From Candidatus Nanoarchaeia archaeon (GTDB taxonomy: Archaea > Nanobdellota > Nanobdellia > Woesearchaeales > GW2011-AR9), in assembly GCA_035291085.1 (NCBI GenBank), contig DATDTA010000145.1:193-64192 (forward strand): a DNA stretch of 64,000 bases, written 5' to 3'. Positions 35,404 through 53,891 of the stretch are shown piece by piece. Position numbers and translations under genes: made by a program. A model generated the notes under the pieces. That model searched no databases and was not told where the DNA came from. It saw only the letters and a program-made list of their open reading frames with translations. How positions within the stretch are numbered: the first letter of the stretch is position 1; each line of letters begins with the position of its first letter.

Positions 35404-37164
35404 TCAATCACTTGCCAACGCTTCACTATCCCACATATCTTCAAAGTTATCTGCCCGTTTAATCAGGAAATTGCCCATAACTAAATAATCGATGCCTGTC
35501 CCCATCATGCAATAATACGCATCCTTCGGCGTGCAGACAATAGGTTCTCCACGAATATTAAATGAAGTGTTAATCAAAATAGGAATTCTCGATAATTTCC
35601 CAAATTCCTTAATCAGATTATAATAGAGCTTATTCTGGTATCGTCGCACGGTCTGCAATCTTCCTGAACCATCAACGTGAGTAACTGCAGGAATCTTTGT
35701 ACGATATTGTTTCTTAATAGGATAGACCATCAACATAAAATCAGTCGGCAAAGGAATAGGGTTATCACATTCAAAATATTTCAGGGCATCATCTTCACAT
35801 ACTACTGGAGCAAAGGGCCGAAACTTCTCTCGATGTTTTACTTTAAGATTCAAGATCTCCTGCATATTTTTATTACAGGGGTTTGATAAAATACTTCTTG
35901 CTCCTAGAGCACGAGGACCCCATTCCATTTTTCCCTGGAACCAACCGATAACATTATTATCATAAATCAGTTTTGCTGTCTTCTTGACTAATTCCTTCTC
36001 GTCACGGAAAAGCGTATACCTAACAAAATGCGAATCAAGAAACTGTTTAATTTCATCATCCATGAATCCCGGCCCGAGATATGCGGTATCTTGCACATAC
36101 CGTTTCTTGTTCCCCAAAATCTGATGATACCCAAACAGAGCTGCCCCGATGGCATTACCTGCATCTCCTGCGGCCGGCTGAATATATATTCTCTTAAACG
36201 GCGTATTTTTCAAAATCTTTCCGTTAGCCACACTATTCAAAGCAACTCCGCCAGCAAGGCAAATATTCTCCTGTTTAGTTTCCTTCCATACATGGTTCAG
36301 TATTCTAAATAACACTTCTTCAGTCACTAACTGCACTGCCGCAGCAATATCTTTATGGCGCTGCGTAAGCGGTTCATCTTTTTTCCGTACTGCGCCGCCA
36401 AGCAACGTACAAAGCTTCACATTAGGCATTCTGGGCTTATAATGAAAATCAAAATACTGCATTCTAAGAGCAAAACTGCCGTCCTCTTTTAGATCAATAA
36501 CCCTTCGTAATCGATGGTAATACTCATTCTTTTCCTTAACCATCATTCCATACGGTGCTAAGCCCATCACTTTATATTCAGAATTATTGACGGTAAATCC
36601 AAGATAGGCAGTAATAGTACTGTACAACAATCCAATCGAATGAGGGAAATGAAGTTCTGCCAGCATATCCACCTTGTTGCCCTTTCCAACACCATAAGTA
36701 GTAGTAGCCCATTCTCCTACTCCATCCAAAGTAACAATAGCTGCTTCCTTGAAAGGAGAGGGAAAAAAACTGCTGGCCGCATGGGATTGGTGATGTTCAA
36801 TAAAATATATCCTTCCCTTATAGTCTAGCTTAAGTCGAATAGTCTGCTCCACCTTCAGCTTTTTCTTGGTCCAGGAAGGAAAGAACTTGGCAAAAGTGTG
36901 GAAAGAAAAAGGAGCCATCTGCAAATGCTGGTTCAAAATACGTTGAAATTTTAACAACGGTTTTTCGTAAAAGCAAATATGATCTAGCTCTACAGCAGTT
37001 ATGCCTGCTTCCTGCAAACAAAAATTAATTGCTTGTATAGGAAAATTATTATCGTGCTTTTTCCTGGTAAAACGCTCTTCCTCAGCCGCTGCGATTATTC
37101 TACCATCTTTAATTAAACAAGCTGCGGAATCGTGATAGTAACAAGAAATACCTAAAATGTACAT
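35404..37164 (-). CDS. NodU/CmcH-family carbamoyltransferase.
   Basis: MYILGISCYYHDSAACLIKDGRIIAAAEEERFTRKKHD (Kae1/HypF-like N-domain), then the YrdC-like C-domain. Length is 586 aa. Confidence 0.85.
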   Translation of the reverse strand: MYILGISCYYHDSAACLIKDGRIIAAAEEERFTRKKHDNNFPIQAINFCLQEAGITAVELDHICFYEKPLLKFQRILNQHLQMAPFSFHTFAKFFPSWTKKKLKVEQTIRLKLDYKGRIYFIEHHQSHAASSFFPSPFKEAAIVTLDGVGEWATTTYGVGKGNKVDMLAELHFPHSIGLLYSTITAYLGFTVNNSEYKVMGLAPYGMMVKEKNEYYHRLRRVIDLKEDGSFALRMQYFDFHYKPRMPNVKLCTLLGGAVRKKDEPLTQRHKDIAAAVQLVTEEVLFRILNHVWKETKQENICLAGGVALNSVANGKILKNTPFKRIYIQPAAGDAGNAIGAALFGYHQILGNKKRYVQDTAYLGPGFMDDEIKQFLDSHFVRYTLFRDEKELVKKTAKLIYDNNVIGWFQGKMEWGPRALGARSILSNPCNKNMQEILNLKVKHREKFRPFAPVVCEDDALKYFECDNPIPLPTDFMLMVYPIKKQYRTKIPAVTHVDGSGRLQTVRRYQNKLYYNLIKEFGKLSRIPILINTSFNIRGEPIVCTPKDAYYCMMGTGIDYLVMGNFLIKRADNFEDMWDSEALASD

Positions 37165-37471: not shown

Positions 37472-38968
37472 CTATGCTGCCCCCTTTTTGCGCAGTATCA
37501 TCACATATTTCTTGATTTCTGCAAGATCGATCAGCTTGAGCAGGTATGCTGCCAATAGATATAACGCCGTTCCCGCTGTCGCCAGCAGCACGATTTGTAC
37601 CCAAGATGGAAAAGGAAGGAATTTCTTGAACACAACTCCGACCACCGCCAAGATCACCCCGGCAACCATATGCTTTGGCCAGAACCATTTTGGAATCCCA
37701 AAAGATAAATAAGGAGCCACCCCAGCGCTGAAAAGGAATAGCCCCAGGCCGAAACTCAGGGTGTTAGCCAAAGCTGCACCAGTTATTCCAAACGAAGGGA
37801 TTAAGATAAGATTCGCCACGACATTGGCGACGGCTATAACAATAATGATCTTAGCCACGTCTTTCGGCCTGCCTAAGGCGATGAGCGCGCCTTGATATAT
37901 TCCAGCTACCACAAATAGCAGCATCCCGACTATCAAAATCTGCAATGACGGCGTTCCTGAAAGATATTCAGATCCAAAGAAGAGCTTGATGAAAAAATCA
38001 GAAAAAATAAGGATGCATAATGAAGGAGGTACAAAGATGATTAAAGTATATTTTATGAGCATCCGCAGGCCTTCGGTCAGACGGAGCAAGTCTTTATTCA
38101 TCCAAAACTTGACCATCATGGGAAAGGTTGCCTCCGTCAACGCGCTCCCGAAGAATAATAACATGGTAGCAGAGGAGTAGATGACATTGTATATTCCCAC
38201 TTGGGCTAGATCAGAAAAATAAGTGAGCATGAGCGTGTCAATGTCACCAATAAATTTACCCGCCAATGAGCTGGCGAACAAAGGCAGCCCGAAGTAGAGC
38301 AACTCTTTCGACACCGGCCAGAAGTCAACTACTTTATGCTTAAAGAAAGGAAACGTCTTCAGCAAAAAAGGCAGCAGAATCAGGGCCATCAGGAAAAAAG
38401 TAAGGATGTTGGCCCAGGCCGGGGCGTAGATGCCTAAACCAAGATACAGAAACATCATCAGCAAAAGGAAAGTAATGGCATTATTCATGAATTCCATCAC
38501 TGAATATACCTTGATGTTCTGAAATCCATTAAAGATGCTGCGGTAAAGGCGATAGAGCAGGCTTCCGAAAACATACAACAATAAGATTCTCAAAAGCATA
38601 ATCGCCCTGGAATCTTTGAAGTAATGCTCGGCCAAAAAGCCGGAAGCAAAAAATACTACTCCCGCAAAAAGTAGTGAGCTGATCATCTGAATTGTGAACG
38701 CAGAAACGATCACTGTCTTAAGATGATGGTGCCTCCCTTGCACCTGAAATTGAGGAATGAATTTCACTAAAGCCGACCCCAATCCCAAGTCCTTAAGAAA
38801 AAGAAAAAAGAGTATGAAAGTAAAGACCGCATAATACAGCCCATAATCAGCAGGCTGCAGGGTTCGGGCCAAGATAATTTTTCCGGCATACGCGATTGCT
38901 GAAGCGATCGTGGTCATCAACAACAAAAAACCGGTACCAAAGACAGCTTTTTTCGTGTAATTAGCCAT
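37472..38968 (-). CDS. Wzx-like oligosaccharide/polysaccharide flippase (MOP superfamily).
   Basis: 498 aa, 12-14 hydrophobic helices, polysaccharide-biosynthesis-protein-like N-terminus MANYTKKAVFGTGFLLLMT. Confidence 0.7.
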   Translation of the reverse strand: MANYTKKAVFGTGFLLLMTTIASAIAYAGKIILARTLQPADYGLYYAVFTFILFFLFLKDLGLGSALVKFIPQFQVQGRHHHLKTVIVSAFTIQMISSLLFAGVVFFASGFLAEHYFKDSRAIMLLRILLLYVFGSLLYRLYRSIFNGFQNIKVYSVMEFMNNAITFLLLMMFLYLGLGIYAPAWANILTFFLMALILLPFLLKTFPFFKHKVVDFWPVSKELLYFGLPLFASSLAGKFIGDIDTLMLTYFSDLAQVGIYNVIYSSATMLLFFGSALTEATFPMMVKFWMNKDLLRLTEGLRMLIKYTLIIFVPPSLCILIFSDFFIKLFFGSEYLSGTPSLQILIVGMLLFVVAGIYQGALIALGRPKDVAKIIIVIAVANVVANLILIPSFGITGAALANTLSFGLGLFLFSAGVAPYLSFGIPKWFWPKHMVAGVILAVVGVVFKKFLPFPSWVQIVLLATAGTALYLLAAYLLKLIDLAEIKKYVMILRKKGAA

Positions 38969-41027: not shown

Positions 41028-44000
41028 TCAGGCTTTTTGTAGTAATCCTTTCTCTAGCAAGATCTCAGCATGTTCCAGGATGACGTTGAAGGGACGTTTA
41101 GAACGGACTGCGATGTCCAATAAGCTATGCTCGCCATCAGATAAATTCAGTATCCATAAAAAGCATTCTTGAGAGAGAGAAGTATTACGTTGCGCTCCGC
41201 GTAAGGCATATAATCCTCTTCGTCCTAGTTGCGGCTCACCCTTCGGGTTGGTGTTGATATAGAGTTCATTATGCTCCAATACTTCTAAAACTTCTAAATA
41301 TCGTGATAAAGAAGCAGCTAAATGTTCTGGTTTTACAAAATCAAGATCATCGGCGGAGGTATGATACTGAGGAAAACTGGTATAATGGCTGCGCATCAGC
41401 GATCCTACCGGAAGATTAAAGCCTGGAGAACAGAACTGCCGCTCATCGCTTCCAGTCGGGAAAAAATCTAAGATTTGATACGGTTCATTAGAATCACGCA
41501 GTATTTTTTCCGCAACCTGATCTATCAGAGCATCTCCCCGTCTGCTTTTTTTGTAACTTACTGGTCCTGGACCGCCTACGCAGGTCGCTACCAATCCGTG
41601 TTTTATCTTACCTATATTCCGTTCATTCCGCGCCAGCCAAGTGATCGCGCCGATAGTCTCGGGGATGAATAAAAACCGGTAAGAATAATAATTTGAGCAA
41701 CGTGACTGTAATTCCTTGATAAGCTGGGTAAGAAGCACTACTCCACTGAGATTATCATTGCACATGGAAGGGTGGCAAACATAACAAGTAAGCAACACTT
41801 CTTCAGGATTTTTTCCAGGTAGAAACATCTCGCCGTAGGTAAGGGATCCTTCAGTCAGGCTGCTTTCTATCACTGCCTCATATTGATCTTCTGGTAAAGC
41901 TTCTAGTTCTCTGTGGGTTAAGCAAAAACCCCAATCTTCTTTATAGTAAGAAGTAGAATATGGTATCCAATCGGGATGTTCTGGAAGAGTGTGAAGGTGC
42001 TTCTTTAATTCTTCTAACCCCATCTTCTGGTGCACCGGGATGCTGTAGCTTACCACATGGATATTGCTTCTTTGAAAATCAATAACTTTAACCCCTTTAG
42101 AATTTAGGACATAGGCATCCTTGATATTCCATTCTTTAGGCACAGTCCAGTCAAATACTTTTGTTCCCGTCGGAACTTCAAAGACTTCTAAAGTGGGAAG
42201 ATGCTCTTTAATTATTTGCAAGGTTTCTCTGACTCCTTTGCCAGTAATGCTTCGGCAAATAGGAAAGAGCCGCTGCATCAAAGCATACATTTCTGTTCCA
42301 ACTCCTTTTTCTATATCTTTTTCTTTTACCCATTTTTCTACTCCCGAGCCTGCGCTTTCCACTTCTTCTGCTCTTTCAATGAATTTCTTTTTCCGCAGAA
42401 GATATCCTTCTACATAGATATTATCCAGTTGAACATCCTCTACCGAAATAATTTCTTCCGCAATTTCTATCGGTTTCATCACGATCGGCTTGCCGTGGAT
42501 GTTTAAGGAAGTATTTAGCACTGCTCCAATCCCGGTCTTCCGCTCGAATGCCTTGATAATTTTATAATATAAAGGATTCGATTCCGGTTCTACCCGCTGC
42601 GGTCTGGCCGTTTTATCAAAAGGGTGGATTGCTGCCGCTAAATGCTTTCTGCCTAAAGGAGTGGTATCAAAACCGATAGTCATGTAAGAGCAGTTGATTT
42701 GCTTCGGATTTATGACATAATCGGAGATTCTTTCCGTCAAAATAGAGGGAGTGAAAGGCATCCAAAAATCGCGCTGCTTAATTGCTTCATTAATTTTGGC
42801 GACTGCTTGCTGGTCGCTGGGATTAGCTAGAATCGATCTATGCCCCAGGGCACGCGGCCCAAATTCCATCCGCCCCTGGAATACAGCACAAATTTCTCCT
42901 GCGGCTAGAAGCTGAGCTATATCGTCTGCGCTCGCGTTGGCAATTATGTCATAACGCTCTTGAATGAGAGGATGATTCAACAATTGTTCTATTTCTGTCT
43001 TTGATGCTTCATTTCCTAGGTACGCATGGGTAAGCGTAGGGATATTTTTATAATTCAGCTGATCTAACTTCAGCCGATCTAACAACACATACGCCGAACC
43101 AATAGATAGGGATTCATCTCCTGCTCCAGGGGGAATATACAGAGAGTCGACCATTTCTAATTCCGCCAGGCGTTTATTTATCTTGATGTTTAATGCTAGA
43201 CCTCCACTTATCACGACGTCTTTTATCCCTGTTTCTTTGATACAATTAGAAACCCATTTTACCATCAGCTCTTCAGCAAAATCCTGCACCCCGCCGGCAA
43301 TGCCATCAAATCGGCATCCTTTCAACTTTTCTTGAAAATATTTGAAGAAATCAGTCATTTCAGGATTTCTTTTGAATTTTAATCCCTCCACGTCTAGACA
43401 TTCCATAAAGACTTTGAACGGCCTTTCTTTTTCATAACCTCTAGAGTATGGAGCCAAACCCATCACTTTATACTCATGCTCGTGCGGTTTCATTCCTAAT
43501 AATAGAGTAATACTACTATACATTTTAGCAATCACGTTATCATGAGCTCTGTGGATACATTCATGCTTCCCATTCCTAAATACATTAACCGTTTCATACG
43601 TTCCATCCCCTCCCGCATCAGCAGTCAACACTAAGAAATCTTTTTTCTGCGTACGCAGGGGATTAGTGTAATATCCGAAATAAGCGTGAGATAGATGATG
43701 GTCAACAAAGATTACTCTCTCCGAGGGCAGATTAAAATAGGTTTCAATATACTCCCTCCGAACGATACTGGTCATCTCTTTGGCTTCTTCATTTAACTCT
43801 CGGTTAAACGCAAAGGGAATATTCTGCAAAGGATAGTAATTCCCCCCTTTTGCTTTATGATGTGGGAATACATCTGCTAACTTTATATCTTTTTTATCAT
43901 AAATCACCGGCTGCCAATATTTTTCTTCTAGGGTATAATGGTCCCTGATATTCATGCTGGTGATTAAATTATGCAGATTAGCACAACTTACTTGCTGATT

Positions 44001-44204
44001 GCCGATGGTAACATAATCTACTTCTTCAATAGTGATTCCTGCAATTTCCAAACATTTCTCTATGGCGCGCTTAGGAAATCCGCCCCTGTTTTTTACTCTT
44101 TGAAGTCTTTCTTCAGAAATAGCGCAGACTAATTCTCCATTCTTAATCACACAAGCAGAAGCATCGTGAGAATCATTTATTCCAACTACAATTAATGGTT
44201 TCAT
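41028..44204 (-). CDS. Fusion: NodU/CmcH carbamoyltransferase (about aa 1-600) joined to a C-terminal aminopeptidase-like (M28-like, DUF4910-type) domain with a terminal winged-helix.
   Basis: N-terminus MKPLIVVGINDSHDASACVIKNGELVCAISEERLQRV. The C-terminal half has CHPSMCNDNLSGVV, a YHTSADDLDF metal-binding-like block and a terminal wHTH-like LLDIAVRSKRPFNVILEHAEILLEKGLL. Confidence 0.75.
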   Translation of the reverse strand: MKPLIVVGINDSHDASACVIKNGELVCAISEERLQRVKNRGGFPKRAIEKCLEIAGITIEEVDYVTIGNQQVSCANLHNLITSMNIRDHYTLEEKYWQPVIYDKKDIKLADVFPHHKAKGGNYYPLQNIPFAFNRELNEEAKEMTSIVRREYIETYFNLPSERVIFVDHHLSHAYFGYYTNPLRTQKKDFLVLTADAGGDGTYETVNVFRNGKHECIHRAHDNVIAKMYSSITLLLGMKPHEHEYKVMGLAPYSRGYEKERPFKVFMECLDVEGLKFKRNPEMTDFFKYFQEKLKGCRFDGIAGGVQDFAEELMVKWVSNCIKETGIKDVVISGGLALNIKINKRLAELEMVDSLYIPPGAGDESLSIGSAYVLLDRLKLDQLNYKNIPTLTHAYLGNEASKTEIEQLLNHPLIQERYDIIANASADDIAQLLAAGEICAVFQGRMEFGPRALGHRSILANPSDQQAVAKINEAIKQRDFWMPFTPSILTERISDYVINPKQINCSYMTIGFDTTPLGRKHLAAAIHPFDKTARPQRVEPESNPLYYKIIKAFERKTGIGAVLNTSLNIHGKPIVMKPIEIAEEIISVEDVQLDNIYVEGYLLRKKKFIERAEEVESAGSGVEKWVKEKDIEKGVGTEMYALMQRLFPICRSITGKGVRETLQIIKEHLPTLEVFEVPTGTKVFDWTVPKEWNIKDAYVLNSKGVKVIDFQRSNIHVVSYSIPVHQKMGLEELKKHLHTLPEHPDWIPYSTSYYKEDWGFCLTHRELEALPEDQYEAVIESSLTEGSLTYGEMFLPGKNPEEVLLTCYVCHPSMCNDNLSGVVLLTQLIKELQSRCSNYYSYRFLFIPETIGAITWLARNERNIGKIKHGLVATCVGGPGPVSYKKSRRGDALIDQVAEKILRDSNEPYQILDFFPTGSDERQFCSPGFNLPVGSLMRSHYTSFPQYHTSADDLDFVKPEHLAASLSRYLEVLEVLEHNELYINTNPKGEPQLGRRGLYALRGAQRNTSLSQECFLWILNLSDGEHSLLDIAVRSKRPFNVILEHAEILLEKGLLQKA

Positions 44205-45424
44205 CTTTTATCTCCACGGAAAAAGTTAATGTCTTTATCCAATTGCTTAAAAGCCTCATTATATAATACTTCAGTATCAGCAAGCAATAGCTTTCCATTT
44301 CCAATTTTAACTTTATTAATCAATTTATTCTCTAATAGATATTTCTCAAATAAGGAAGCATCATAAACTACATTCTCATCTAAATTCCTAACGAAATAAG
44401 TGCAGGAATCTTTGAACTCTCTTCCAAAAATTCTAAGCGTTCCTTCAAAAGTTTTCATATACCTGTAAGGAACACCATAGCTTTGCTCTACGTAATGCAT
44501 GAAGGTTGCTGATTGAAATTTAGCTCCAAAGAATAAAATTTTGGCTTTTTCTTTATGCAGTTTTCCGAATATGGAATCTTTTCCAAAACAATCAGCTTCC
44601 ACATTTTTAAACTTCTTCTTATCCTTGCCAAAGATTGCAGCTGAAAAAATCGGATGTATTGTTCTTCCAGGCTTTTCAAAATTCCTAAAATGTTCAGATA
44701 ATACTCCTACGGTAGATGGCGAAAATTCCGGATCATAAACCTGATTATGGCAGTAGCTGTAAGTAAAAGTGGGCATAATAATTGTTCCATTTCCTACACT
44801 TTCTTTTAAAGCTTCAATTAAACTATTTAATAATGAGTTCCTATTTCCTCCAGACAGCTTTCCAAACACAGAAATATCGCTGTGAACAAAAATGGAATCT
44901 CCTTTATTTACCCCAACTTTCTTTAAAGCTTCAACAAAATCTTGATAGTAAAGCTTGTCTTCTCCAAAAATAAATAACGGGTTTTTTTCATAAGTTATAG
45001 GAAGAATTTGCACCGTCCCTGTTCCTTTAAACACGCATTCGCCATTTTCCCTATACATTTTAGTTGAAATCTCCACAAAATGGGTAGAATTACTTTTCCC
45101 CATCACTTCTCCTATTACTTTTATCTTATCTCCAATAAAATAAGGCTTGATATATTTGGCATCCTGTTTAATGCAGATGGAACTCCCCCCCGGTAAATGT
45201 TCTCCGTATAACGTAGACAGCAATGAAGTTAACATAAATCCATAGCCTATCTGCCGCCGATACTCCGTCTGAGAAAAATAATTCTTATCCCAATGAATCG
45301 GACTATAATCATCAACTAATCCTGCAAACAGTTTATGTTTCTGCAGATCTATTTCCATCTCAAATCCTGCTTTCTGGCCAACTGCTATTTCTGAGAATGC
45401 CCACGCTTTATTTCGATGTTTCAT
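44201..45424 (-). CDS. Fusion: MaoC-like hotdog (R-hydratase) domain joined to an AAC(3)-family (Antibiotic_NAT-like) N-acyltransferase domain.
   Basis: N-terminal YSPIHWDKNYF (MaoC dehydratase signature region). C-terminal FVHSDISVFGKL and TIIMPTFTYS match the conserved aminoglycoside 3-N-acetyltransferase blocks. Confidence 0.6.
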   Translation of the reverse strand: MKHRNKAWAFSEIAVGQKAGFEMEIDLQKHKLFAGLVDDYSPIHWDKNYFSQTEYRRQIGYGFMLTSLLSTLYGEHLPGGSSICIKQDAKYIKPYFIGDKIKVIGEVMGKSNSTHFVEISTKMYRENGECVFKGTGTVQILPITYEKNPLFIFGEDKLYYQDFVEALKKVGVNKGDSIFVHSDISVFGKLSGGNRNSLLNSLIEALKESVGNGTIIMPTFTYSYCHNQVYDPEFSPSTVGVLSEHFRNFEKPGRTIHPIFSAAIFGKDKKKFKNVEADCFGKDSIFGKLHKEKAKILFFGAKFQSATFMHYVEQSYGVPYRYMKTFEGTLRIFGREFKDSCTYFVRNLDENVVYDASLFEKYLLENKLINKVKIGNGKLLLADTEVLYNEAFKQLDKDINFFRGDKR

Positions 45425-45497: not shown

Positions 45498-45725
45498 TCA
45501 TTTTCTGCTTACAATTTCACATAAATCTTTGAAAGTAATTATTTGATCAATCTCTTCCAGAGTAAATTCCAGATTCACTTTCCTTTCAATCTCAGCAATC
45601 AAAGCCAGATGATTGAATGAATCCCATTCAGAATTATTCTTGCGGGAAAAATTATCATCTATCTGATCAACCGAAATTTCCATTACTTCCGATATTATTT
45701 TTTTTAGCTGTTCCATTTTATTCAT
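45498..45725 (-). CDS. Acyl carrier protein (stand-alone).
   Basis: 75 aa. EWDSFNHLALIAEIE has Ser in the DSx phosphopantetheine-attachment context, with acidic helices. Confidence 0.7.
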   Translation of the reverse strand: MNKMEQLKKIISEVMEISVDQIDDNFSRKNNSEWDSFNHLALIAEIERKVNLEFTLEEIDQIITFKDLCEIVSRK

Positions 45726-46458
45726 AGATTATGTAAGACTGTAAAGGACTCAACACGCTTCTTTGAATTTTGAATTTATCCAATCCAAAAACTTCTTTTA
45801 AAGCAATAGTTTCTCCTGGACATTCCTTATAATTTAATTCATCGAAACCAATTATAGACCCTTTAGTTAGATGTCCTTTAATTAATTTTAAACACTCCTT
45901 AGTGGGCTGATAAATGTCCATGTCAAAATAAACTAAAGAAATAATAGTGTGAGGATTTTCTTGTAAATATTTTTTAAGAGTAATACTCGCATCTCCTTTT
46001 ATAATTTCAAATTTTTTAATATGAGGAATGGGGCTTTCTGATTCATGAAAATCTAAAATCTGTTTTAAATATTCTTCATATCCATGAGTAACCGAATAAT
46101 CACCGGTTTTCATTTGATGATCATTCTCGCTTACCATAGGAAAGCCTTCAAAAGTGTCAAACCCTACAATTTTTCGATTGTAATTGAATGGCTCTAACAT
46201 ACCTCTAAAATTAGAAAATAAGGCTAGGTTATGCCCCCATCTAACTCCTAATTCTATTACTATTCCGTGAGTTTCCAAAGATTTCTGATAAAGCTCATAC
46301 ATAAATAAAATTCTGGACATAGTTCTTCGATTAATGAATAACCCCAAATTGCCTAATAATTCCTGTTCCGGAATGGGTGTATTTTTAAATAACTGGAAGA
46401 ATTTTTCTCTATTAATCCTCTCTTGATTAGAGGTTCTTTCAATAGTATTAAAGTCCAT
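45718..46458 (-). CDS. TylF/MycF-family (macrocin O-methyltransferase-like) class I SAM methyltransferase.
   Basis: GIVIELGVRWGHNL (ExGxxxG), FDTFEGFP, YFDMDIYQPT (metal-binding DxDxY). Confidence 0.7.
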   Translation of the reverse strand: MDFNTIERTSNQERINREKFFQLFKNTPIPEQELLGNLGLFINRRTMSRILFMYELYQKSLETHGIVIELGVRWGHNLALFSNFRGMLEPFNYNRKIVGFDTFEGFPMVSENDHQMKTGDYSVTHGYEEYLKQILDFHESESPIPHIKKFEIIKGDASITLKKYLQENPHTIISLVYFDMDIYQPTKECLKLIKGHLTKGSIIGFDELNYKECPGETIALKEVFGLDKFKIQRSVLSPLQSYIIYE

Positions 46459-46752: not shown

Positions 46753-47487
46753 TTAATTTTTTTTATCAACAAGAATTGAAATTTCGATGCTGACTCTAGT
46801 TCTATCATTAGTTCCAACAACCCCGGCATGCAGGAGCTTATCATGGAAGATAATAATATCTCCTGGGTTTGTGGGGATAACTGTTGCTTTATCAGAAACA
46901 TCTTTTACTGTTGTAGCTTTCCCATATTCTCCAATAGTAAATTCATACTCTTGTTTTTGAGAATGAGGAACAACCATTAATCCAGCTTTTCCCGGCTCGC
47001 AGTAAACGGCTATCCAGGCTTTTAACATTTGCTTGCCTTTAGGCAGACTATATTTGGAACGCTGCCAGAACCAATAATCTGCATGCATGAGGGCAGCATC
47101 ACTTTTTTCAAATGGTCTAACTAAACGCCAATAAATATCTTCTCTTCCTAAATGCCCATTAACCGGACATAAGTCTGTTGCAGAAAATTCTCCTAATACT
47201 TTGCTTAATACCGAAAAGATAGAAAATTTTTTGATTGCATCCACCTGCTCTTTAGAAAAAATTCTAACTGGTTTTGGCCAGGCTTCACTATGATTAATCA
47301 TGTGCGCACTTTTATGATATTCTTCAATAGGACAGTTTAGGAATAAAGAGTAATTATCTTGATATTTGTTCTTAAGATTATCATGATAACTTTTGTTAAT
47401 AAAATTACGGATAGTTGCCAGTTCAGATGTGGATAATTTTAAGTTGGTAATAAAACCGGTTCCTTCATTAAGTTCATTCATAACCAT
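46753..47487 (-). CDS. PhyH-like Fe(II)/2-oxoglutarate-dependent dioxygenase.
   Basis: LMHADYWF (HxD facial triad) and a distal FHDKLLHAG (second His). 244 aa. Confidence 0.6.
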   Translation of the reverse strand: MVMNELNEGTGFITNLKLSTSELATIRNFINKSYHDNLKNKYQDNYSLFLNCPIEEYHKSAHMINHSEAWPKPVRIFSKEQVDAIKKFSIFSVLSKVLGEFSATDLCPVNGHLGREDIYWRLVRPFEKSDAALMHADYWFWQRSKYSLPKGKQMLKAWIAVYCEPGKAGLMVVPHSQKQEYEFTIGEYGKATTVKDVSDKATVIPTNPGDIIIFHDKLLHAGVVGTNDRTRVSIEISILVDKKN

Positions 47488-47500
47488 CTAAACCACCGTT

Positions 47501-48199
47501 TTAAGCTTTGTAATTTTGGATTATAAATCTTCTGCAATTAAAGCCATACATTCCGGCATCTTCAGACTTAATAGAAAATTTCTTTACCGCTTCCAGCCAG
47601 GCGCGTCTTTCTCCGTTCTCATTATCATTGGCGGAAGCATTAAACTCATCAAAGCAAATCATTGCTCCTTGACTAATCATGCTTTTAGAAAATATATAAT
47701 TTAAAACCTCTTCAGTAGATTCATAAAGATCACAGTCAACATGGACTAAAGCAAATTTCTGGTTTTCTGGAAGCTGGGGAAGAGTTTCATTGAACCATCC
47801 CGGATAAATTTTGAGATTATTAATATATTTTTCACATTTTTTTCTGACAGATTCTGGATTGCCTTTGAAATCACCTTTTTTCCATTTGCCCTGGGCTACT
47901 TCTTTCATTCCTGAAGCTATACTCTTTATTTCAGGAAGCCCTTGGAAACTGTCAAATAATAATAAAGCCTTATTATTTTTCTTTATTCTGGATAAAGCAT
48001 AGCTGATATAAGAAGCGCTGAACCCATTCGAAACTCCAAATTCAGCAATATCCCCATCAACTAAGGAATAACTCACGTAATTTACTGCGCTGATAAGACC
48101 TTGCTCACGCTGTAAGGCAGTTTCATTCCAGCTTAGCCTTTGCAAGTTTCTAAGAATATTTCTCTTTAATAATTTAAAATGCCTAATATATTTCTCCAT
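47501..48199 (-). CDS. Second TylF/MycF-family SAM methyltransferase, paralog of 45718..46458.
   Basis: GDIAEFGVSNGFS, FDSFQGLP, HVDCDLYEST. Confidence 0.7.
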   Translation of the reverse strand: MEKYIRHFKLLKRNILRNLQRLSWNETALQREQGLISAVNYVSYSLVDGDIAEFGVSNGFSASYISYALSRIKKNNKALLLFDSFQGLPEIKSIASGMKEVAQGKWKKGDFKGNPESVRKKCEKYINNLKIYPGWFNETLPQLPENQKFALVHVDCDLYESTEEVLNYIFSKSMISQGAMICFDEFNASANDNENGERRAWLEAVKKFSIKSEDAGMYGFNCRRFIIQNYKA

Positions 48200-49070: not shown

Positions 49071-50918
49071 TCAAGCCTTTTTACTTAATTTTTCCTGGTA
49101 ATACTGCTGCAGCATTCTATATAGCACTTTTTTGGTCGGCCCTTTAGGAATATCTGGCAAATCCGGCAGATTATTAATAATAATTATTTCCTTAGGCTGC
49201 TTATACCCGGCTATTTTATCTGAAAGGAAATGACGTAAATCCTCTTCCCGCACCGAGAGCCATCCTTTGTCTTCCTTAAGCTTGACAAAAGCACAAACTT
49301 CCTGTCCCAGTAGCTTACTGGGTATGCCGAACACCGCACATTCTGCTACGGCAGGATGCTTAAAGAGAACATTTTCAACTTCACTGGGATAAATGTTTTC
49401 TCCACCTTTGATGATCAGGAAATCTTTCCTGGTTTTGAAATAGATGTATCCGTCTGCATCCATATAACCGTAATCCCCACTATGAAACCAGCCGTTCCTA
49501 AAAGTTTGATAGTTTTTTTCCGGAAGCATGAAATATTCATTTGCAACATTCAAACCACGTATACAGATTTCACCCTCTTGGCCCAAGGGCAATTCATTAC
49601 CATCATCATTGCGGATGCTGATTTTATTAACAGGAAGAGCCTTGCCCACGGTTCCTACTTTTCGTTTTTCCGCAGGGAAATCATTGAAGCAGGCAAAGGA
49701 AGTAGTTTCCGTCAAACCGTAACCCTCAAACACCGGGATCTTAAAGCGGGATTCAAATTGGTTTTGCATCTCTCTGGTTAAGGGCTGCCCTCCGCAGATT
49801 ATACCTTGCATAGATTGGTCAGTGCGCTCCAGCGGCAGGCTCAACAAAATGGAAAGAATGGAAGGCATGACGCTGATCCAGTTGATGTGATATTGTTCAA
49901 TGAGACGCCAAAACGTCATCAAGCTGGTTTTACCCTGCACCATCACGGTTGAACCGCCGGCATAGAGAGGGCTTAGCAAGGTTACAACCTGCCCATTATT
50001 ATGAAAGAGTGGAAGCAGGCCTAAAGTCCTGGTTGAGGACGAAAACAGGAACCATTCAGAAAGCGCTTTGGCATCAGCCAGCAAATTGAGATGAGTAAGC
50101 ACCACGCCCTTAGGATTTCCCGTCGTTCCAGAGGTATAGATTATGACTGCTTTATCAGTTGGACTAACTTCAGGTGTTTGAAACAAATGCGCAATCGTTT
50201 GCGCAGATGAGTCGGAAAAATATTCTGAAGAAAAAAATTTTTCTGTTGAATAAAAAGTAGCGAGGGGGGCAGCGACAGCCCCTATTTTCGATTCTACAAT
50301 AGGATCAAAGAGAACCATTTTTGTTTGCGAATTAGTAATAATAAATTCCATCTCTGGAGGTGAAAGATCGGGGTTGATGGGCACGACCACTACTCCCAGC
50401 GCCAGCGCGGCAAAATAAAGTGATACGAAAGAAGAGGAAGTAGGGATGATTAAACAGAGGCGATGGCCGGGCTGTAGGCCATGTTCACCCTGAAGCTGAG
50501 CGGCAACCAATTTAATTTTATAGTCAAAATCCTGATAAGTAAAGGACTCATCTTTATCCGGAAAGAAAATAAAATCCTTTGCCAAAAAAAGTTCTTTTTT
50601 GGCTAAGAACAGTTCATAGACATTCTGGTATTCGATAGCAAATGGTTTTTCCAGACGCTGGTGCGGCAGCAGCATTTCTGAATTGATGGGCAATCCTTTT
50701 CTATTCTGAAGGTATTTACGAAGAATTGCTAGAATTGCTGGAACACCGGTCATGCGCAAAGTATCTTTATATTCCAATCTAATGCCAAACTCTTTTTCCA
50801 GCGCCGCTAAGAGCTGAATATGCTTCAGGGAATCCCAGCGCGGAGTATTGGCCATAGTCAAATCAATACTATAACTGCCCATTATTTTCTCAAACACTTC
50901 ACGAAGTTTTTGTTCCAT
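49071..50918 (-). CDS. Fusion: N-terminal ACP domain joined to an acyl-AMP/acyl-CoA ligase (adenylate-forming enzyme).
   Basis: N-terminal PRWDSLKHIQLLAALE (DSL phosphopantetheine site). AMP-binding motif IYTSGTTGNPKGVVLTH and C-terminal GWFHSGDYGYMDADGYIYFKTRKDFLIIKGGENIYP. Confidence 0.8.
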   Translation of the reverse strand: MEQKLREVFEKIMGSYSIDLTMANTPRWDSLKHIQLLAALEKEFGIRLEYKDTLRMTGVPAILAILRKYLQNRKGLPINSEMLLPHQRLEKPFAIEYQNVYELFLAKKELFLAKDFIFFPDKDESFTYQDFDYKIKLVAAQLQGEHGLQPGHRLCLIIPTSSSFVSLYFAALALGVVVVPINPDLSPPEMEFIITNSQTKMVLFDPIVESKIGAVAAPLATFYSTEKFFSSEYFSDSSAQTIAHLFQTPEVSPTDKAVIIYTSGTTGNPKGVVLTHLNLLADAKALSEWFLFSSSTRTLGLLPLFHNNGQVVTLLSPLYAGGSTVMVQGKTSLMTFWRLIEQYHINWISVMPSILSILLSLPLERTDQSMQGIICGGQPLTREMQNQFESRFKIPVFEGYGLTETTSFACFNDFPAEKRKVGTVGKALPVNKISIRNDDGNELPLGQEGEICIRGLNVANEYFMLPEKNYQTFRNGWFHSGDYGYMDADGYIYFKTRKDFLIIKGGENIYPSEVENVLFKHPAVAECAVFGIPSKLLGQEVCAFVKLKEDKGWLSVREEDLRHFLSDKIAGYKQPKEIIIINNLPDLPDIPKGPTKKVLYRMLQQYYQEKLSKKA

Positions 50919-50927
50919 TAGTCTTTC

Positions 50928-51869
50928 CTATTTTACTGAATCTTTGAAATGATCAATGATGTTTTCTGCCGCCCGCCTAGCCATCATCGAACGGCATTCC
51001 TTAGTTGCCGTTCCGATATGCGGAATAATCAAACAATTATCTTTTTTACAGAGCGGATGGCTGGCCGGAAGCGGCTCGGGATCAGTCACGTCGAGGCATG
51101 CTCCCCGAATGAATCCCTTTTGCAATGCCTCGACTAAATCGTCAGTATGGACCACCCCGCCACGGGCCATGTTGATCAAAACTGGCTTCTTCTGCATCTG
51201 CAGGAACTCTTTTTTGCCGATAAAATGTTTTGTTTCCTTGGTCAATGGGAGGTGCAGGGAAATATAATCTGCATTATTGAGGAGAAAAGGCAGTTCTACC
51301 TGCTGAATCGCGACCGGGATTGGTTCATCTGCCGGAGGTGTCGACCGGTTATAGTAAATGACCTGAAGACCAAAACCTAATGCTCTTTTGGCTACAGCTC
51401 TTCCAATTTTACCAAAACCGATGATACCCAGCGTTTTTCCGGAAAGTTCTTCACCGAGAAAAAGTTCAGGATCCCATGATTTCCATTTATCCTGATAAAT
51501 AAAATCACGGGCCGAGTGAATTTTCCTGGTCCAGGCTAAAAGTAAAGCCAAAGTCAGATCCGCAGTACTCTCGGTTACCACATTCGGAGTATTATATATA
51601 GAGATTCCTTTACTTTGCGCTGCAGCCAGATCAATATTATCTAAACCCACAGCGTAATTAGAAATTACCTGTACAGAACTATTATTAAGAATATCCGCGG
51701 TCATTTTTTCCGATACGGTCGTTAAAATTCCATCGTAGTTGGAAGTGATTTCTTTTAACTTTACTAGCGGTAACGGAGCATTTTCTTCAGAAGAGTCAAC
51801 CTGAAAATGTTTACCCAAAAGTTCTTTGGCTATCGGAGGCAAGCGCCTGGTTATAAAAATTCGCTTCAT
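50928..51869 (-). CDS. D-isomer-specific 2-hydroxyacid dehydrogenase (glyoxylate/hydroxypyruvate reductase-like).
   Basis: GKTLGIIGFGKIGRAVAKRA (NAD-binding), catalytic His region IIPHIGTAT. Confidence 0.8.
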   Translation of the reverse strand: MKRIFITRRLPPIAKELLGKHFQVDSSEENAPLPLVKLKEITSNYDGILTTVSEKMTADILNNSSVQVISNYAVGLDNIDLAAAQSKGISIYNTPNVVTESTADLTLALLLAWTRKIHSARDFIYQDKWKSWDPELFLGEELSGKTLGIIGFGKIGRAVAKRALGFGLQVIYYNRSTPPADEPIPVAIQQVELPFLLNNADYISLHLPLTKETKHFIGKKEFLQMQKKPVLINMARGGVVHTDDLVEALQKGFIRGACLDVTDPEPLPASHPLCKKDNCLIIPHIGTATKECRSMMARRAAENIIDHFKDSVK

Positions 51870-53156: not shown

Positions 53157-53891
53157 TCACGTCATCCCGCCATCAACATTTATCACTTGTCCATTCACAT
53201 AGCTGGCCAAATCACTAGCCAGAAAAAGAGCAACCCGAGCTATCTCTTGTGGCTGGCCAATCCTTTTTAGGATGGTTTGATTCAGCAAACGTTCCCGCTG
53301 TTCAATCGTAAGGTAACTAATCATTTCTGTTTCTGTCAATCCTGGAGCTATAGCATTGACAGTAATGCCAATCGGCCCTAGCTCTTTTGCTGCAGTCTTG
53401 GTAAAACCAATTATCCCTGCCTTGCTAGAGCTATAAGCAGCTTGCCCGGGGTTGCCGAATAAACCCATCACTGAAGTGATATTGATTATCTTCCCCCCGC
53501 TAAGGAGCATTATCTTAGCTGCTTCTTTAGTGCAGAGAAAAGTTCCTTTAAGATTTGTGCCTAATATCGCTTCCCACTCCGCTTCCTCAGTCTTGAGAAT
53601 TAAATTATCCTTCAAAATGCCGGCGTTATTGATCAATACATCCAGTCGACCAAAAATTTTTTTGACTTCAGAAAACAAATGCTGCACCTGATCTGCTTTG
53701 CTGATATCTGCCTGAATAGCGATAGCGGTTGGGCAAATAGTTTTTATTTCTTGCAGGGTTTGCTGCAAAGAATCCTCGCTATGGAGATAGTTTATGATCA
53801 CTGTTGCTCCTTGTTGTGCGAAAAGAATAGCGATGGCCTTCCCGATCCCTTTGCTGGCACCAGTAATCAAAACAACTTTATTCTGAAGCAT
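53157..53891 (-). CDS. Short-chain dehydrogenase, 3-oxoacyl-ACP reductase (FabG)-like.
   Basis: VVLITGASKGIGKAIA (TGxxxGxG), NNAGI, YSSSKAG (YxxxK). Confidence 0.85.
   Translation of the reverse strand: MLQNKVVLITGASKGIGKAIAILFAQQGATVIINYLHSEDSLQQTLQEIKTICPTAIAIQADISKADQVQHLFSEVKKIFGRLDVLINNAGILKDNLILKTEEAEWEAILGTNLKGTFLCTKEAAKIMLLSGGKIINITSVMGLFGNPGQAAYSSSKAGIIGFTKTAAKELGPIGITVNAIAPGLTETEMISYLTIEQRERLLNQTILKRIGQPQEIARVALFLASDLASYVNGQVINVDGGMT

What the first reader, a model, noticed from the sequence alone, without database searches (positions are those of the whole stretch)
41028..44204. 1058-aa carbamoyltransferase fused to an M28-like domain, plus a second stand-alone carbamoyltransferase (35404..37164)
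Two NodU/CmcH-family O-carbamoyltransferases lie within 9 kb of each other, which implies carbamoylated sugar(s). The larger one carries a C-terminal module of about 440 aa with an aminopeptidase-like metal-site block (YHTSADD) and a terminal winged-helix, a DUF4910-type module found in polysaccharide loci. To my knowledge that module has not been described as a fusion partner of a carbamoyltransferase. It could act as a binding or secondary hydrolytic domain, for example to generate the acceptor hydroxyl or amine.
Basis: partly seen in the sequence, partly recalled or inferred. Interest (0 to 1): 0.6.

Follow-up and report, generated by a model that had tools for sequence, protein, structure and literature searches.

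The report
Fused sugar-tailoring enzymes in pseudaminic-acid locus
One 1058-residue gene of an uncultivated groundwater microbe joins a carbamoyl-adding enzyme to a zinc-binding, peptidase-shaped module; these are separate neighbouring genes in its relatives, so this is a real but lineage-specific fusion inside a cluster that builds and decorates a sialic-acid-like surface sugar, and its main value is as a clue that the two parts act on the same sugar.

Summary
ORF 41028..44204 (-) is an uninterrupted 1058-aa protein. Residues 1-613 are a complete NodU/TobZ-type carbamoyltransferase. A roughly 10-20-aa flexible linker follows. Residues ~624-1058 are a complete CA_C2195/Cj1295-type module (DUF4910 with its DUF2172 insert, then HTH_47), about 65% identical to PDB 3K9T. 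A second carbamoyltransferase, only 29% identical, lies at 35404..37164.

The fusion is not an assembly artefact. Separately called protein variants and a second contig with SNPs all keep the frame. In the closest relatives the two genes are adjacent but separate: 11 nt apart in L166 and overlapping by ATGA in L021.

No other carbamoyltransferase-DUF4910 fusion surfaced in any search. DUF4910 is, however, fused elsewhere to AAC(3)-like N-acyltransferases, a methyltransferase, a sugar dehydrogenase and an aminotransferase.

The module keeps only the single-zinc triad (H811, D817, H948). It lacks both M28 catalytic residues, so it is not an aminopeptidase.

The locus is a pseudaminic-acid pathway (PseC-PseF-synthase triple fusion) plus an ACP-dependent N-acyl tailoring cassette like C. 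jejuni Cj1295-Cj1304. Most likely the fusion tethers two tailoring steps on one modified pseudaminic acid. The chemistry is inferred.

It is a new architecture of known parts, of modest interest.

The parts
41028..44204 (-). Fused gene, 1058 aa: carbamoyltransferase + CA_C2195/Cj1295-type module
43092..44186 (-). Carbam_trans_N (Kae1-like transfer domain), aa 7-371. Conserved H13, E31-E32-R33, H169/H170/H173, D196, K246, G334-G335..N339, D363
42390..42917 (-). Carbam_trans_C (YrdC-like, carbamoyl-AMP-forming domain), aa 430-605. Conserved E447..R451..R456-S457, K476xR478, H527, D530, R534, N564-T565-S566xN568
42315..42380 (-). Linker, aa 609-630 (KFIERAEEVESAGSGVEKWVKE). It is the only stretch with pLDDT below 50. 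Stand-alone carbamoyltransferases end at or before aa 613, and stand-alone DUF4910 proteins begin around aa 620-625
41268..42287 (-). DUF4910, the M28-fold single-zinc domain, aa 640-979
41862..42134 (-). DUF2172 alpha+beta insert domain, aa 691-781
   Evidence: PMC4000134
41037..41264 (-). HTH_47 circularly permuted winged helix, aa 981-1056
   Evidence: PMC4000134
41754..41774 (-). Motif CHPSMCND. H811 and D817 are zinc ligands, equivalent to CA_C2195 H189 and D195. S813 replaces the M28 catalytic Asp
   Evidence: PMC4000134
41346..41366 (-). Motif YHTSADD. H948 is the third zinc ligand, equivalent to CA_C2195 H324
44201..45424 (-). Upstream gene: MaoC dehydratase + AAC(3)-like N-acyltransferase fusion. 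Its TGA overlaps the ATG of the fused gene (ATGA)
45498..45725 (-). Acyl carrier protein (PP-binding)
45718..46458 (-). Methyltransferase (weak TylF-type match), 67% identical to its L166 counterpart
46753..47487 (-). 2OG-Fe(II) oxygenase (PhyH)
47501..48199 (-). TylF-type O-methyltransferase
49071..50918 (-). AMP-binding acyl ligase
50928..51869 (-). D-2-hydroxyacid dehydrogenase (best matches glyoxylate/hydroxypyruvate reductase)
51873..53132 (-). Class I/II aminotransferase
53157..53891 (-). FabG-like 3-oxoacyl-ACP reductase
53896..54291 (-). 4'-phosphopantetheinyl transferase
54331..54837 (-). GNAT with a PseH-like match (below cut-off)
55541..58510 (-). PseC + PseF + nonulosonic-acid synthase (+SAF) triple fusion, 989 aa
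39136..40812 (+). Convergent gene: Epimerase_2/Capsule_synth-like, with a BFO_1060-family glycosyltransferase match. Candidate nonulosonic-acid transferase
37472..38968 (-). Wzx-type flippase
35404..37164 (-). Second, stand-alone carbamoyltransferase (586 aa). It is 29% identical to the fused one and has a 43%-identical counterpart in L166

Best explanation
The ORF is a genuine, lineage-specific fusion of two neighbouring, translationally coupled tailoring genes of a pseudaminic-acid (Pse) decoration cassette. SHOWN: (a) The N-terminal 613 aa are a complete two-domain carbamoyltransferase with every conserved catalytic motif. (b) The C-terminal ~435 aa are a complete CA_C2195/Cj1295-type module with its single-zinc triad. 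(c) The two are joined by a short disordered linker. (d) In the nearest relatives they are separate adjacent genes. (e) The gene sits in one minus-strand block with a PseC-PseF-synthase fusion, a PseH-like GNAT, an ACP, a PPTase, an acyl ligase, a FabG-like reductase, a hydroxyacid dehydrogenase, an aminotransferase, two methyltransferases, a 2OG oxygenase and a MaoC-AAC(3)-like N-acyltransferase. INFERRED mechanism: a hydroxy-acyl group is built on the ACP. Glyceroyl is the leading candidate. Here it could arise from serine via hydroxypyruvate and D-glycerate, with loading by the ligase; relatives use an FkbH loader instead. The zinc module acts on the acylamido group of Pse or a precursor. 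The published working hypothesis for Cj1295 is removal of the N5-acetyl that comes with UDP-GlcNAc. The AAC(3)-like enzyme then installs the new acyl group. The methyltransferases and the carbamoyltransferase (carbamoyl phosphate + ATP, then carbamoyl-AMP, then transfer) decorate its free hydroxyls or those of the sugar. The fusion enforces 1:1 stoichiometry and proximity of two steps on the same molecule. The second carbamoyltransferase serves another position or another sugar of the glycan.
For: Domain content and boundaries: (3K9T TM 0.97, rmsd 1.6 A; GdmN/VtdB/NovN/TobZ TM 0.71-0.81). Catalytic motifs of the carbamoyltransferase are invariant across 119 homologues and shared with the second copy. 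The zinc triad H811/D817/H948, plus S813 and P848, are conserved as in CA_C2195 (PMC4000134). The fusion is real: the window protein equals HLD80268.1, recorded on 10 contigs; a K656N variant lies on an independent ENA contig; an 876-aa partial and an 814-aa variant with 3 substitutions both span the junction; L001 is 99.96% identical over 10.1 kb with 4 SNPs, all frame-preserving. Origin from adjacent genes: L166 has methyltransferase(67%)-carbamoyltransferase(62%)-11 nt-DUF4910(61%) in synteny. L021 has NAT-carbamoyltransferase-ATGA-DUF4910. L005 and L168 have DUF4910 immediately upstream of the carbamoyltransferase. Among 9 loci with a carbamoyltransferase at least 54% identical, an AAC(3)-like NAT is present in 9/9 and DUF4910 within 4.2 kb in 6/9. 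Pse pathway: PseC 507.5 bits against a cut-off of 423.5, and PseF 295.3 against 205.7. DUF4910 is repeatedly fused to AAC(3)-like NATs. Genetics: Cj1295 (DUF2172, 435 aa) is required for 5-(2,3-di-O-methylglyceroyl)-Pse on C. jejuni flagellin (PMC3068675; PMC6321876).
Against: No biochemical activity is known for any DUF4910 protein. In 46 of the 80 GTDB DUF4910 loci retrieved, the neighbours are a PIG-L deacetylase and, where annotated (L017), NDP-6-deoxyhexose genes, with no NAT or NeuB detected. A Pse N5 de-N-acetylase role therefore cannot be the general function of the family. Three of 9 close carbamoyltransferase loci lack DUF4910 nearby. The AF2 pTM of 0.65 with a disordered linker gives no evidence of a fixed interface. 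The same lineage also fused MaoC to the NAT and PseC to PseF and the synthase, so fusing neighbours may be a lineage habit rather than a sign of special coupling. The acceptor of the carbamoyl group and the identity of the acyl chain are pure inference. No carbamoylated nonulosonic acid appeared in the searchable literature. An in-frame ATG (M639), with AAAGGAG 11 nt upstream, could also yield a separate DUF4910 protein.
Confidence: 0.6

Rival explanations
1. Consecutive-step channel making an N-carbamoyl (ureido) pseudaminic acid. The zinc module de-N-acetylates Pse, and the tethered carbamoyltransferase carbamoylates the freed amine itself rather than a hydroxyl.
For: The fusion order and the flexible tether suit hand-over of an intermediate. 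The His/Asp/His single-zinc site with an open coordination position (imidazole bound in 3K9T; PMC4000134) resembles zinc amidohydrolases (own knowledge). The Kae1/TsaD superfamily can carbamoylate nitrogen (own knowledge). Pse has two amino groups, so one could be carbamoylated and the other acylated by the NAT.
Against: All structurally characterised relatives found are O-carbamoyltransferases. An AAC(3)-like NAT accompanies this carbamoyltransferase clade in 9/9 loci while DUF4910 does so in only 6/9. This ties the carbamoyltransferase more to the acyl cassette than to the zinc module. DUF4910-NAT fusions suggest the freed amine, if there is one, goes to the NAT.
Confidence: 0.15
2. The DUF4910 module is non-catalytic here. 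It would be a substrate-, ACP- or partner-binding scaffold (like the M28-fold transferrin receptor) that recruits the carbamoyltransferase to the tailoring complex.
For: The M28 catalytic Asp and Glu are replaced. The module has a separate winged-helix and an insert domain proposed for substrate recognition (PMC4000134). It is fused to many different tailoring enzymes: NAT, methyltransferase, UDP-sugar dehydrogenase and aminotransferase. It also occurs in pathways with quite different sugars.
Against: The zinc triad and a surrounding cluster (C810, P812, N816, D920, E921, R922, Q923, Y947, S950, D952) are invariant or nearly so across phyla. That pattern is typical of an active site. Identity of 55-67% across phyla also argues for strong constraint on chemistry.
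Confidence: 0.15
3. Artefact. Two adjacent genes were merged by an assembly or base-calling error (an indel or lost stop in the short intergenic region).
For: Relatives have the genes 11 nt apart or overlapping by 4 nt, so a single error could merge them. All records come from related groundwater datasets. The only 4 SNPs between two assemblies cluster within 440 nt around the junction.
Against: The same in-frame junction is recorded on 10 contigs for the identical protein, and also in a separate ENA scaffold, a 2016 MAG protein and an SRA-derived protein with different substitutions. The other two frames are full of stops across the junction. The linker is a clean in-frame 10-20 aa, not a frameshifted read-through.
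Confidence: 0.04
4. The fused enzyme tailors a different sugar of the glycan (for example a 6-deoxyhexose or hexuronate made elsewhere in the window), not pseudaminic acid.
For: The 64-kb window encodes several other sugar pathways. DUF4910 occurs in NDP-6-deoxyhexose clusters without nonulosonic-acid genes.
Against: The gene is embedded between the ACP/NAT cassette and the candidate nonulosonic-acid transferase, in the same strand block as PseC-PseF-synthase. Close homologues sit in NeuB/CTP_transf_3 clusters. At least 7 of about 30 long loci of the wider clade also carry NeuB or CMP-synthetase genes.
Confidence: 0.06

Closest known systems
CA_C2195 (PDB 3K9T) / Cj1295 family: 'polysaccharide biosynthesis protein with aminopeptidase-like domain' (DUF4910 + DUF2172 + HTH_47; PIRSF015244)
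   Same: The three-domain order is identical. The phmmer E-value to 3K9T is 9e-160, and the model superposes at TM 0.97 and rmsd 1.6 A. The zinc triad and the S/P replacements of the M28 catalytic residues are the same. The setting is the same too: a modified-sugar cluster with an AAC(3)-like acyltransferase and an ACP.
   Different: Known members are stand-alone proteins of about 435 aa, or are fused to other partners. Here the module is the C-terminal half of a carbamoyltransferase. The function of the family is still unproven.
DUF4910 fusions already present in databases (AAC(3)-like NAT-DUF4910 of about 700 aa; also methyltransferase-, UDP-Glc/GDP-Man dehydrogenase- and DUF4910-aminotransferase fusions)
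   Same: The same module is covalently linked to a sugar-tailoring enzyme, usually with the partner at the N-terminus and a short linker. Das et al. 2014 mention 'in some cases gene fusions'.
   Different: The partner here is a two-domain carbamoyltransferase. No such partner was seen in any search.
TobZ, NovN, GdmN, VtdB: NodU/CmcH-type O-carbamoyltransferases with solved structures
   Same: They share the Kae1-like + YrdC-like two-domain fold (TM 0.71-0.81), the conserved metal and nucleotide motifs, and hence the expected carbamoyl phosphate + ATP, then carbamoyl-AMP, then transfer chemistry.
   Different: Identity is only 21-27%. The NodU equivalog score is 108 against a cut-off of 1000. 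The clade has its own signatures (RDFWMPF; H570) and lives in nonulosonic-acid/ACP-NAT clusters rather than antibiotic or Nod-factor clusters. The acceptor is unknown.
C. jejuni NCTC 11168 flagellin-glycan module around Cj1295-Cj1304, which makes 5-(2,3-di-O-methylglyceroyl)-7-acetamido-Pse
   Same: It has the same parts list: a DUF4910-type protein, an AAC(3)-like N-acetyltransferase (Cj1296/7), acyl carrier proteins, methyltransferase(s) and Pse core genes. Part of the gene content is from my own knowledge; the Cj1295 and Cj1296/7 roles are from PMC3068675.
   Different: No carbamoyltransferase is reported there. Here two carbamoyltransferases, a 2OG oxygenase and a ligase/hydroxyacid-dehydrogenase route are added, and several genes are fused.

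Membership tests
NodU/CmcH/TobZ-type carbamoyltransferase | Both Pfam domains (Carbam_trans_N, Carbam_trans_C) above gathering score, in that order | tested here: met
   114.5 bits (cut-off 24) and 182.1 bits (cut-off 27)
NodU/CmcH/TobZ-type carbamoyltransferase | Kae1-like metal site (HxxxH, Asp, Asp) and N-terminal catalytic His | tested here: met
   H13, H169/H173, D196 and D363 are invariant in 119-120 homologues and in the second carbamoyltransferase. The correspondence to TobZ residues rests on my own knowledge of TobZ.
NodU/CmcH/TobZ-type carbamoyltransferase | YrdC-like carbamoyl-AMP-forming motifs (E.G.R.LG.RS, K.R, NTS.N) | tested here: met
   E447, G449, R451, R456, S457, K476, R478 and N564-T565-S566-N568 are conserved and align to 7XB6 and 9S2T
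NodU/CmcH/TobZ-type carbamoyltransferase | Two-domain fold of solved O-carbamoyltransferases | tested here: met
   Foldseek: GdmN, VtdB, NovN and TobZ at E 2e-39 to 1e-34, target TM 0.70-0.81
NodU/CmcH/TobZ-type carbamoyltransferase | Carbamoyl transfer to a defined acceptor | not testable with these tools
   Needs an enzyme assay
NodU proper (NCBIfam NF041651 equivalog) | Score above the curated cut-off | tested here: not met
   108.3 bits (fused) and 176.1 bits (second copy) against a cut-off of 1000
CA_C2195/Cj1295 family (DUF4910-DUF2172-HTH_47) | The three Pfam domains with DUF2172 inserted in DUF4910 and HTH_47 at the C-terminus | tested here: met
   TM 0.97 to 3K9T
CA_C2195/Cj1295 family (DUF4910-DUF2172-HTH_47) | Single-zinc triad His/Asp/His; Ser and Pro in place of the M28 catalytic Asp and Glu | tested here: met
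   H811, D817, H948, S813 and P848, mapped onto H189, D195, H324, S191 and P225 of PMC4000134
CA_C2195/Cj1295 family (DUF4910-DUF2172-HTH_47) | Location inside a modified-carbohydrate gene cluster | tested here: met
CA_C2195/Cj1295 family (DUF4910-DUF2172-HTH_47) | Direct sequence homology to Cj1295 itself | not tested
The link rests on the literature: 435 aa, PIRSF015244, DUF2172 (PMC3068675, PMC6321876).
Peptidase M28 (active co-catalytic aminopeptidases) | M28 fold | tested here: met
   Foldseek: 3IIB, PaAP and BSAP at E 4e-15 to 4e-13, target TM 0.45-0.61
Peptidase M28 (active co-catalytic aminopeptidases) | Five ligands for two zinc ions, plus catalytic Asp and Glu | tested here: not met
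   Only the H/D/H triad is retained. S813 and P848 replace the catalytic residues. PF04389 did not match this protein at E<=0.01.
Pseudaminic-acid biosynthesis locus | PseC and PseF equivalogs above the curated cut-offs | tested here: met
   507.5 against 423.5 and 295.3 against 205.7
Pseudaminic-acid biosynthesis locus | PseI, PseH, PseB and PseG equivalogs | tested here: inconclusive
   The synthase scores 278.9 (PseI cut-off 340) and 304.8 (NeuB cut-off 400). PseH scores 52 against 93. No PseB or PseG reached its cut-off among the window ORFs tested.

The most novel reading that the evidence does not exclude
The fusion marks a two-step machine that makes the first carbamoylated nonulosonic acid. 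The DUF4910 half would be the long-sought zinc de-N-acetylase (the Cj1295 function) that frees the N5 amine of pseudaminic acid. The tethered carbamoyltransferase would then cap either that amine (ureido-Pse) or the hydroxyl of the newly installed glyceroyl chain. This would assign a biochemical function to a DUF that is widespread across bacteria and archaea, and define a new class of sialic-acid-like surface sugar in CPR/DPANN organisms.
Probability: 0.2. Interest if true: 0.6.

Novelty: new variant of a known kind. Interest (0 to 1): 0.35.

Why it matters
DUF4910/Cj1295 proteins are widespread. Hundreds of 60-67%-identical copies turned up from cyanobacteria to archaea, and the family controls a phase-variable flagellin glycan in Campylobacter jejuni. 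Yet it has had no assigned reaction since 2010-2014. Gene fusions are among the few handles available for uncultivated organisms. This one, together with the recurrent NAT-DUF4910 fusions, says that the zinc module, the ACP-dependent N-acyltransferase and a dedicated carbamoyltransferase clade work on one molecule in pseudaminic-acid tailoring. It also predicts a carbamoylated nonulosonic acid, a structure I could not find in the searchable literature. The practical value is a single soluble polypeptide that could be expressed to test both activities. On its own, though, it is a lineage-specific rearrangement of known parts.

Tried and rejected
(1) Searches for a second example of the fusion found none. 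These were the full-length word-index search, exhaustive phmmer against 1.84 billion representatives, a C-terminal-only query and a junction-spanning query. Blind spots: searches did not even return the protein's own cluster, and one search listed no DUF4910-only proteins. These are therefore not a census.
(2) The GTDB genome scan with a DUF4910 profile gave 80 loci. Only L021 has the carbamoyltransferase. The source genome itself was not among them.
It was useful only for the general link to nonulosonic-acid genes.
(4) Neighbour detection used single-sequence phmmer or a small HMM. It is insensitive, and high-GC Streptomyces loci gave spurious long ORFs, so those 'fusions' were ignored.
(5) A first MAFFT alignment of the fused protein with both homologue sets misaligned the DUF4910 set. 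It was redone separately.
(6) The AFDB50 fold search for the same architecture was unavailable.
(7) Literature searches for carbamoyl combined with nonulosonic, pseudaminic or legionaminic gave only coincidental hits.
(8) An active M28 aminopeptidase was rejected because the catalytic residues are absent.
(9) A recent duplication of the two carbamoyltransferases was rejected because they are 29% identical.
(10) No transmembrane helix was found (maximum 19-residue hydropathy 1.14), so an extracytoplasmic role was rejected.
(11) I did not resolve whether the organism is a DPANN archaeon or a CPR bacterium. The public labels conflict, and the window holds no tRNA or housekeeping markers.

Full report
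OBSERVATION. The window has an uninterrupted ATG-started ORF of 1058 codons at 41028..44204 on the minus strand, and a 586-codon ORF at 35404..37164. Pfam places five domains on the large protein: Carbam_trans_N (aa 7-371), Carbam_trans_C (430-605), DUF4910 (640-979, E 2.9e-113) with DUF2172 inserted (691-781), and HTH_47 (981-1056). All are far above the gathering scores. The small protein is a canonical Carbam_trans_N/C enzyme. Against the PDB by sequence, aa 633-1052 match 3K9T ('putative peptidase', Clostridium acetobutylicum CA_C2195) at E 9e-160. The N-terminal half matches the O-carbamoyltransferases 7XB6, NovN, GdmN and TobZ.

IS THE FUSION REAL? The window protein is identical to NCBI HLD80268.1, which is recorded on 10 contigs from several sources. 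A K656N variant lies on an independent ENA scaffold. An 876-aa partial protein from a 2016 MAG, and an 814-aa SRA-derived protein with three other substitutions, both read through the junction. The ENA scaffold L001 is 99.96% identical to the window over 10.1 kb. All four SNPs lie in this gene, and the frame is kept. The other two frames are full of stops across the junction. An AlphaFold2 model built from 51 sequences has a mean pLDDT of 92. The only disordered stretch is aa 609-630. The pTM of 0.65 describes two well-folded bodies on a flexible tether. The model superposes on 3K9T (TM 0.97, rmsd 1.6 A) and on solved O-carbamoyltransferases (TM 0.70-0.81). No PDB chain covers both halves.

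HOW IT AROSE. Stand-alone homologues of the N-terminal half (596-622 aa, up to 64% identical) end at or before residue 613. Stand-alone DUF4910 proteins (about 435 aa, 60-67% identical) begin around residue 620-625. The truly new linker is therefore only about ten residues (EVESAGSG...). The best syntenic relative is L166. It has methyltransferase (67% identical), carbamoyltransferase (62%), an 11-nt spacer, DUF4910 (61%), and a convergent Epimerase_2-like gene. It also has a counterpart of the second carbamoyltransferase at 43%. L021, labelled a Nanoarchaeia MAG, has NAT, then carbamoyltransferase, then DUF4910. The stop and start of the last two genes overlap as ATGA. L005 and L168 have the opposite order, with DUF4910 directly upstream of the carbamoyltransferase. 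The fusion is thus the loss of a stop between two translationally coupled neighbours.

RARITY. Only the protein's own 90% cluster carries both halves in the full-length search of 5.8 billion clusters. The other 119 listed hits are carbamoyltransferase-only proteins of 644 aa or fewer. In an exhaustive phmmer run against 1.84 billion representatives, none of the best 150 matched both halves. Searches with the C-terminal half and with a junction-spanning piece gave only DUF4910 proteins. These searches have blind spots. Three of them did not return the query's own cluster, so 'unique' means 'no second example surfaced'. They did reveal other DUF4910 fusions: many with an AAC(3)-like N-acyltransferase, and single representatives with a SAM methyltransferase, a UDP-Glc/GDP-Man dehydrogenase and a class-III aminotransferase. 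Das et al. 2014 mention gene fusions in general terms. Their supplementary neighbour list contains two stand-alone carbamoyl transferases, from Thiovulum and Nitritalea. The association is therefore not new, but the fusion appears to be.

THE TWO HALVES. The carbamoyltransferase half keeps every motif that is invariant in 119 homologues and shared with the second copy: H13, E31-E32-R33, H169/H170/H173, D196, K246, G334-G335..N339, D363, E447..R451..R456-S457, K476xR478, H527, D530, R534 and N564-T565-S566xN568. It should therefore make carbamoyl-AMP and transfer the carbamoyl group. This is established chemistry for TobZ-type enzymes (my own knowledge, plus the PDB titles). It is not NodU itself (108 bits against a cut-off of 1000).

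The C-terminal half keeps the single-zinc triad of CA_C2195 (H811, D817, H948, equivalent to H189, D195, H324). It also keeps the Ser and Pro that replace the two M28 catalytic residues (S813, P848). An invariant surrounding cluster is present as well (C810, P812, D920, R922, Q923, Y947, S950, D952). PF04389 (Peptidase_M28) does not match it. It has the M28 fold, but it is not an aminopeptidase.

CONTEXT. The gene closes a minus-strand block (58510 to 41028). The block starts with a 989-aa triple fusion that passes the curated cut-offs for PseC and PseF and also carries a NeuB/PseI-type synthase. The following genes come next, in order:
- a GT2 glycosyltransferase;
- a PseH-like GNAT;
- a PPTase;
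- a FabG-like reductase;
- an aminotransferase;
- a glyoxylate/hydroxypyruvate-reductase-like dehydrogenase;
- an acyl ligase;
- a TylF O-methyltransferase;
- a 2OG oxygenase;
- a second methyltransferase;
- an ACP;
- a MaoC-AAC(3)-like N-acyltransferase fusion, whose stop overlaps the start of the fused gene.
Downstream lie a convergent BFO_1060-like glycosyltransferase, a Wzx flippase and the second carbamoyltransferase.

Nine loci carry a carbamoyltransferase at least 54% identical to the fused one. All nine have an AAC(3)-like NAT, most have ACP and MaoC with either FkbH or a ligase, and six have DUF4910 within 4.2 kb. More distant members of the clade also sit with NeuB, CMP-synthetase or DegT genes.

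MECHANISM (inferred). The parts list parallels the C. jejuni module in which Cj1295 is required for 5-(2,3-di-O-methylglyceroyl)-7-acetamido-Pse on flagellin. Cj1295 is a 435-aa DUF2172/'aminopeptidase-like' protein. Its discoverers proposed that it removes the C5 acetamido group so that a new acyl group can be added (PMC3068675; PMC6321876). The N5-acetyl of Pse arrives with UDP-GlcNAc (established pathway knowledge), so an N5 substitution logically needs a de-N-acetylase. A His/Asp/His zinc site is the usual solution for such enzymes (own knowledge).

I therefore rank the following model first. A hydroxyacyl-ACP is made, probably glyceroyl. Here it would come through the aminotransferase, the hydroxypyruvate reductase and the ligase; relatives use FkbH. 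The zinc module opens the amide. The NAT installs the new acyl group. The methyltransferases and the carbamoyltransferase then decorate free hydroxyls. The fusion simply tethers two of these steps.

Weaknesses are real. No DUF4910 activity has ever been shown. In 46 of the 80 GTDB loci the family sits with a PIG-L deacetylase and, where annotated (L017), NDP-6-deoxyhexose genes, without a NAT or NeuB. The same lineage also fused other neighbours (MaoC-NAT; PseC-PseF-synthase). No fixed interface is predicted.

RIVALS. Four were considered: an N-carbamoylating hand-over that gives a ureido-Pse (0.15); a non-catalytic scaffold role for the module (0.15); a target sugar other than Pse (0.06); and an assembly artefact (0.04).

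VERDICT. This is a new domain architecture built from two known families that already co-localise, found in one uncultivated groundwater lineage. Public labels for that lineage conflict between Nanoarchaeia and Staskawiczbacteria. It is modestly interesting as Rosetta-stone evidence for an uncharacterised but widespread family, and as a pointer to a possible carbamoylated pseudaminic acid.

Noticed in passing
window 55541..58510 (-): A 989-aa triple fusion of PseC aminotransferase, PseF cytidylyltransferase and a NeuB/PseI-type synthase with a SAF domain: three pseudaminic-acid pathway steps in one polypeptide. PseC and PseF pass the NCBIfam cut-offs; the synthase does not.
   Followed up: partly
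window 44201..45424 (-): MaoC dehydratase fused to an AAC(3)-like N-acyltransferase. In all eight related loci examined the two are separate genes or MaoC is absent, so this is a second lineage-specific fusion in the same operon.
   Followed up: partly
window 984..3239 (-): A 751-aa protein combining a pyruvate-kinase barrel domain with PUA_2 and ATP-sulfurylase domains. This is an odd combination at the edge of a glycan island, possibly for sulfate activation.
   Followed up: no
window 6197..9115 (-): A 972-aa protein with a cytidylyltransferase-like domain followed by PPDK_N and PEP-utilizer mobile domains.
   Followed up: no
window 9215..10609 (-) and 18279..20276 (-): Two further fusions: a histidine phosphatase joined to a SAM methyltransferase, and a PylC-like ATP-grasp N-domain joined to an NAD-dependent sugar epimerase/dehydratase.
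   Followed up: no
window 41028..44204 compared with L001 6752..9928: The only four differences between two assemblies over 10.1 kb all fall within 440 nt around the domain junction (gene nt 1578, 1923, 1968, 2019). Three are synonymous and one gives K656N.
   Followed up: partly
window 42288..42290 (M639) and upstream: An in-frame ATG at the start of the DUF4910 homology has AAAGGAG 11 nt upstream. It may be a remnant ribosome-binding site and start that could still give a separate DUF4910 protein.
   Followed up: no
L006-L085 (GTDB DUF4910 loci), e.g. L017 5376..16477: In 46 of 80 loci (cyanobacteria, Streptomyces, Acidobacteria, Nitrospira) the DUF4910 gene is accompanied by a PIG-L family deacetylase. 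In L017 the cluster also has a 4,6-dehydratase, a 3,5-epimerase, a sugar C-methyltransferase, an SDR and a nucleotidyltransferase, with no NAT or nonulosonic-acid genes. This is a second, quite different habitat for a protein 55-60% identical.
   Followed up: partly
window 35404..37164; L166 1..1717; L168 11144..12832: Two carbamoyltransferases of different clades per locus is a recurring pattern, not peculiar to this window.
   Followed up: partly
whole window: No tRNA gene was found, and none of the roughly 55 larger ORFs scanned against Pfam is an informational housekeeping gene. Most of the window is glycan biosynthesis. Public records assign the same protein to a 'Candidatus Nanoarchaeia archaeon' MAG and to a 'Candidatus Staskawiczbacteria bacterium' MAG, so even the domain of life of the source is uncertain.
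   Followed up: no
window 30915..33011 (+): A 698-aa B12-binding radical-SAM protein lies next to the locus. Similar proteins neighbour NAT/DUF4910 in L039 and L169, hinting at C-methylation of the acyl chain or the sugar.
   Followed up: no
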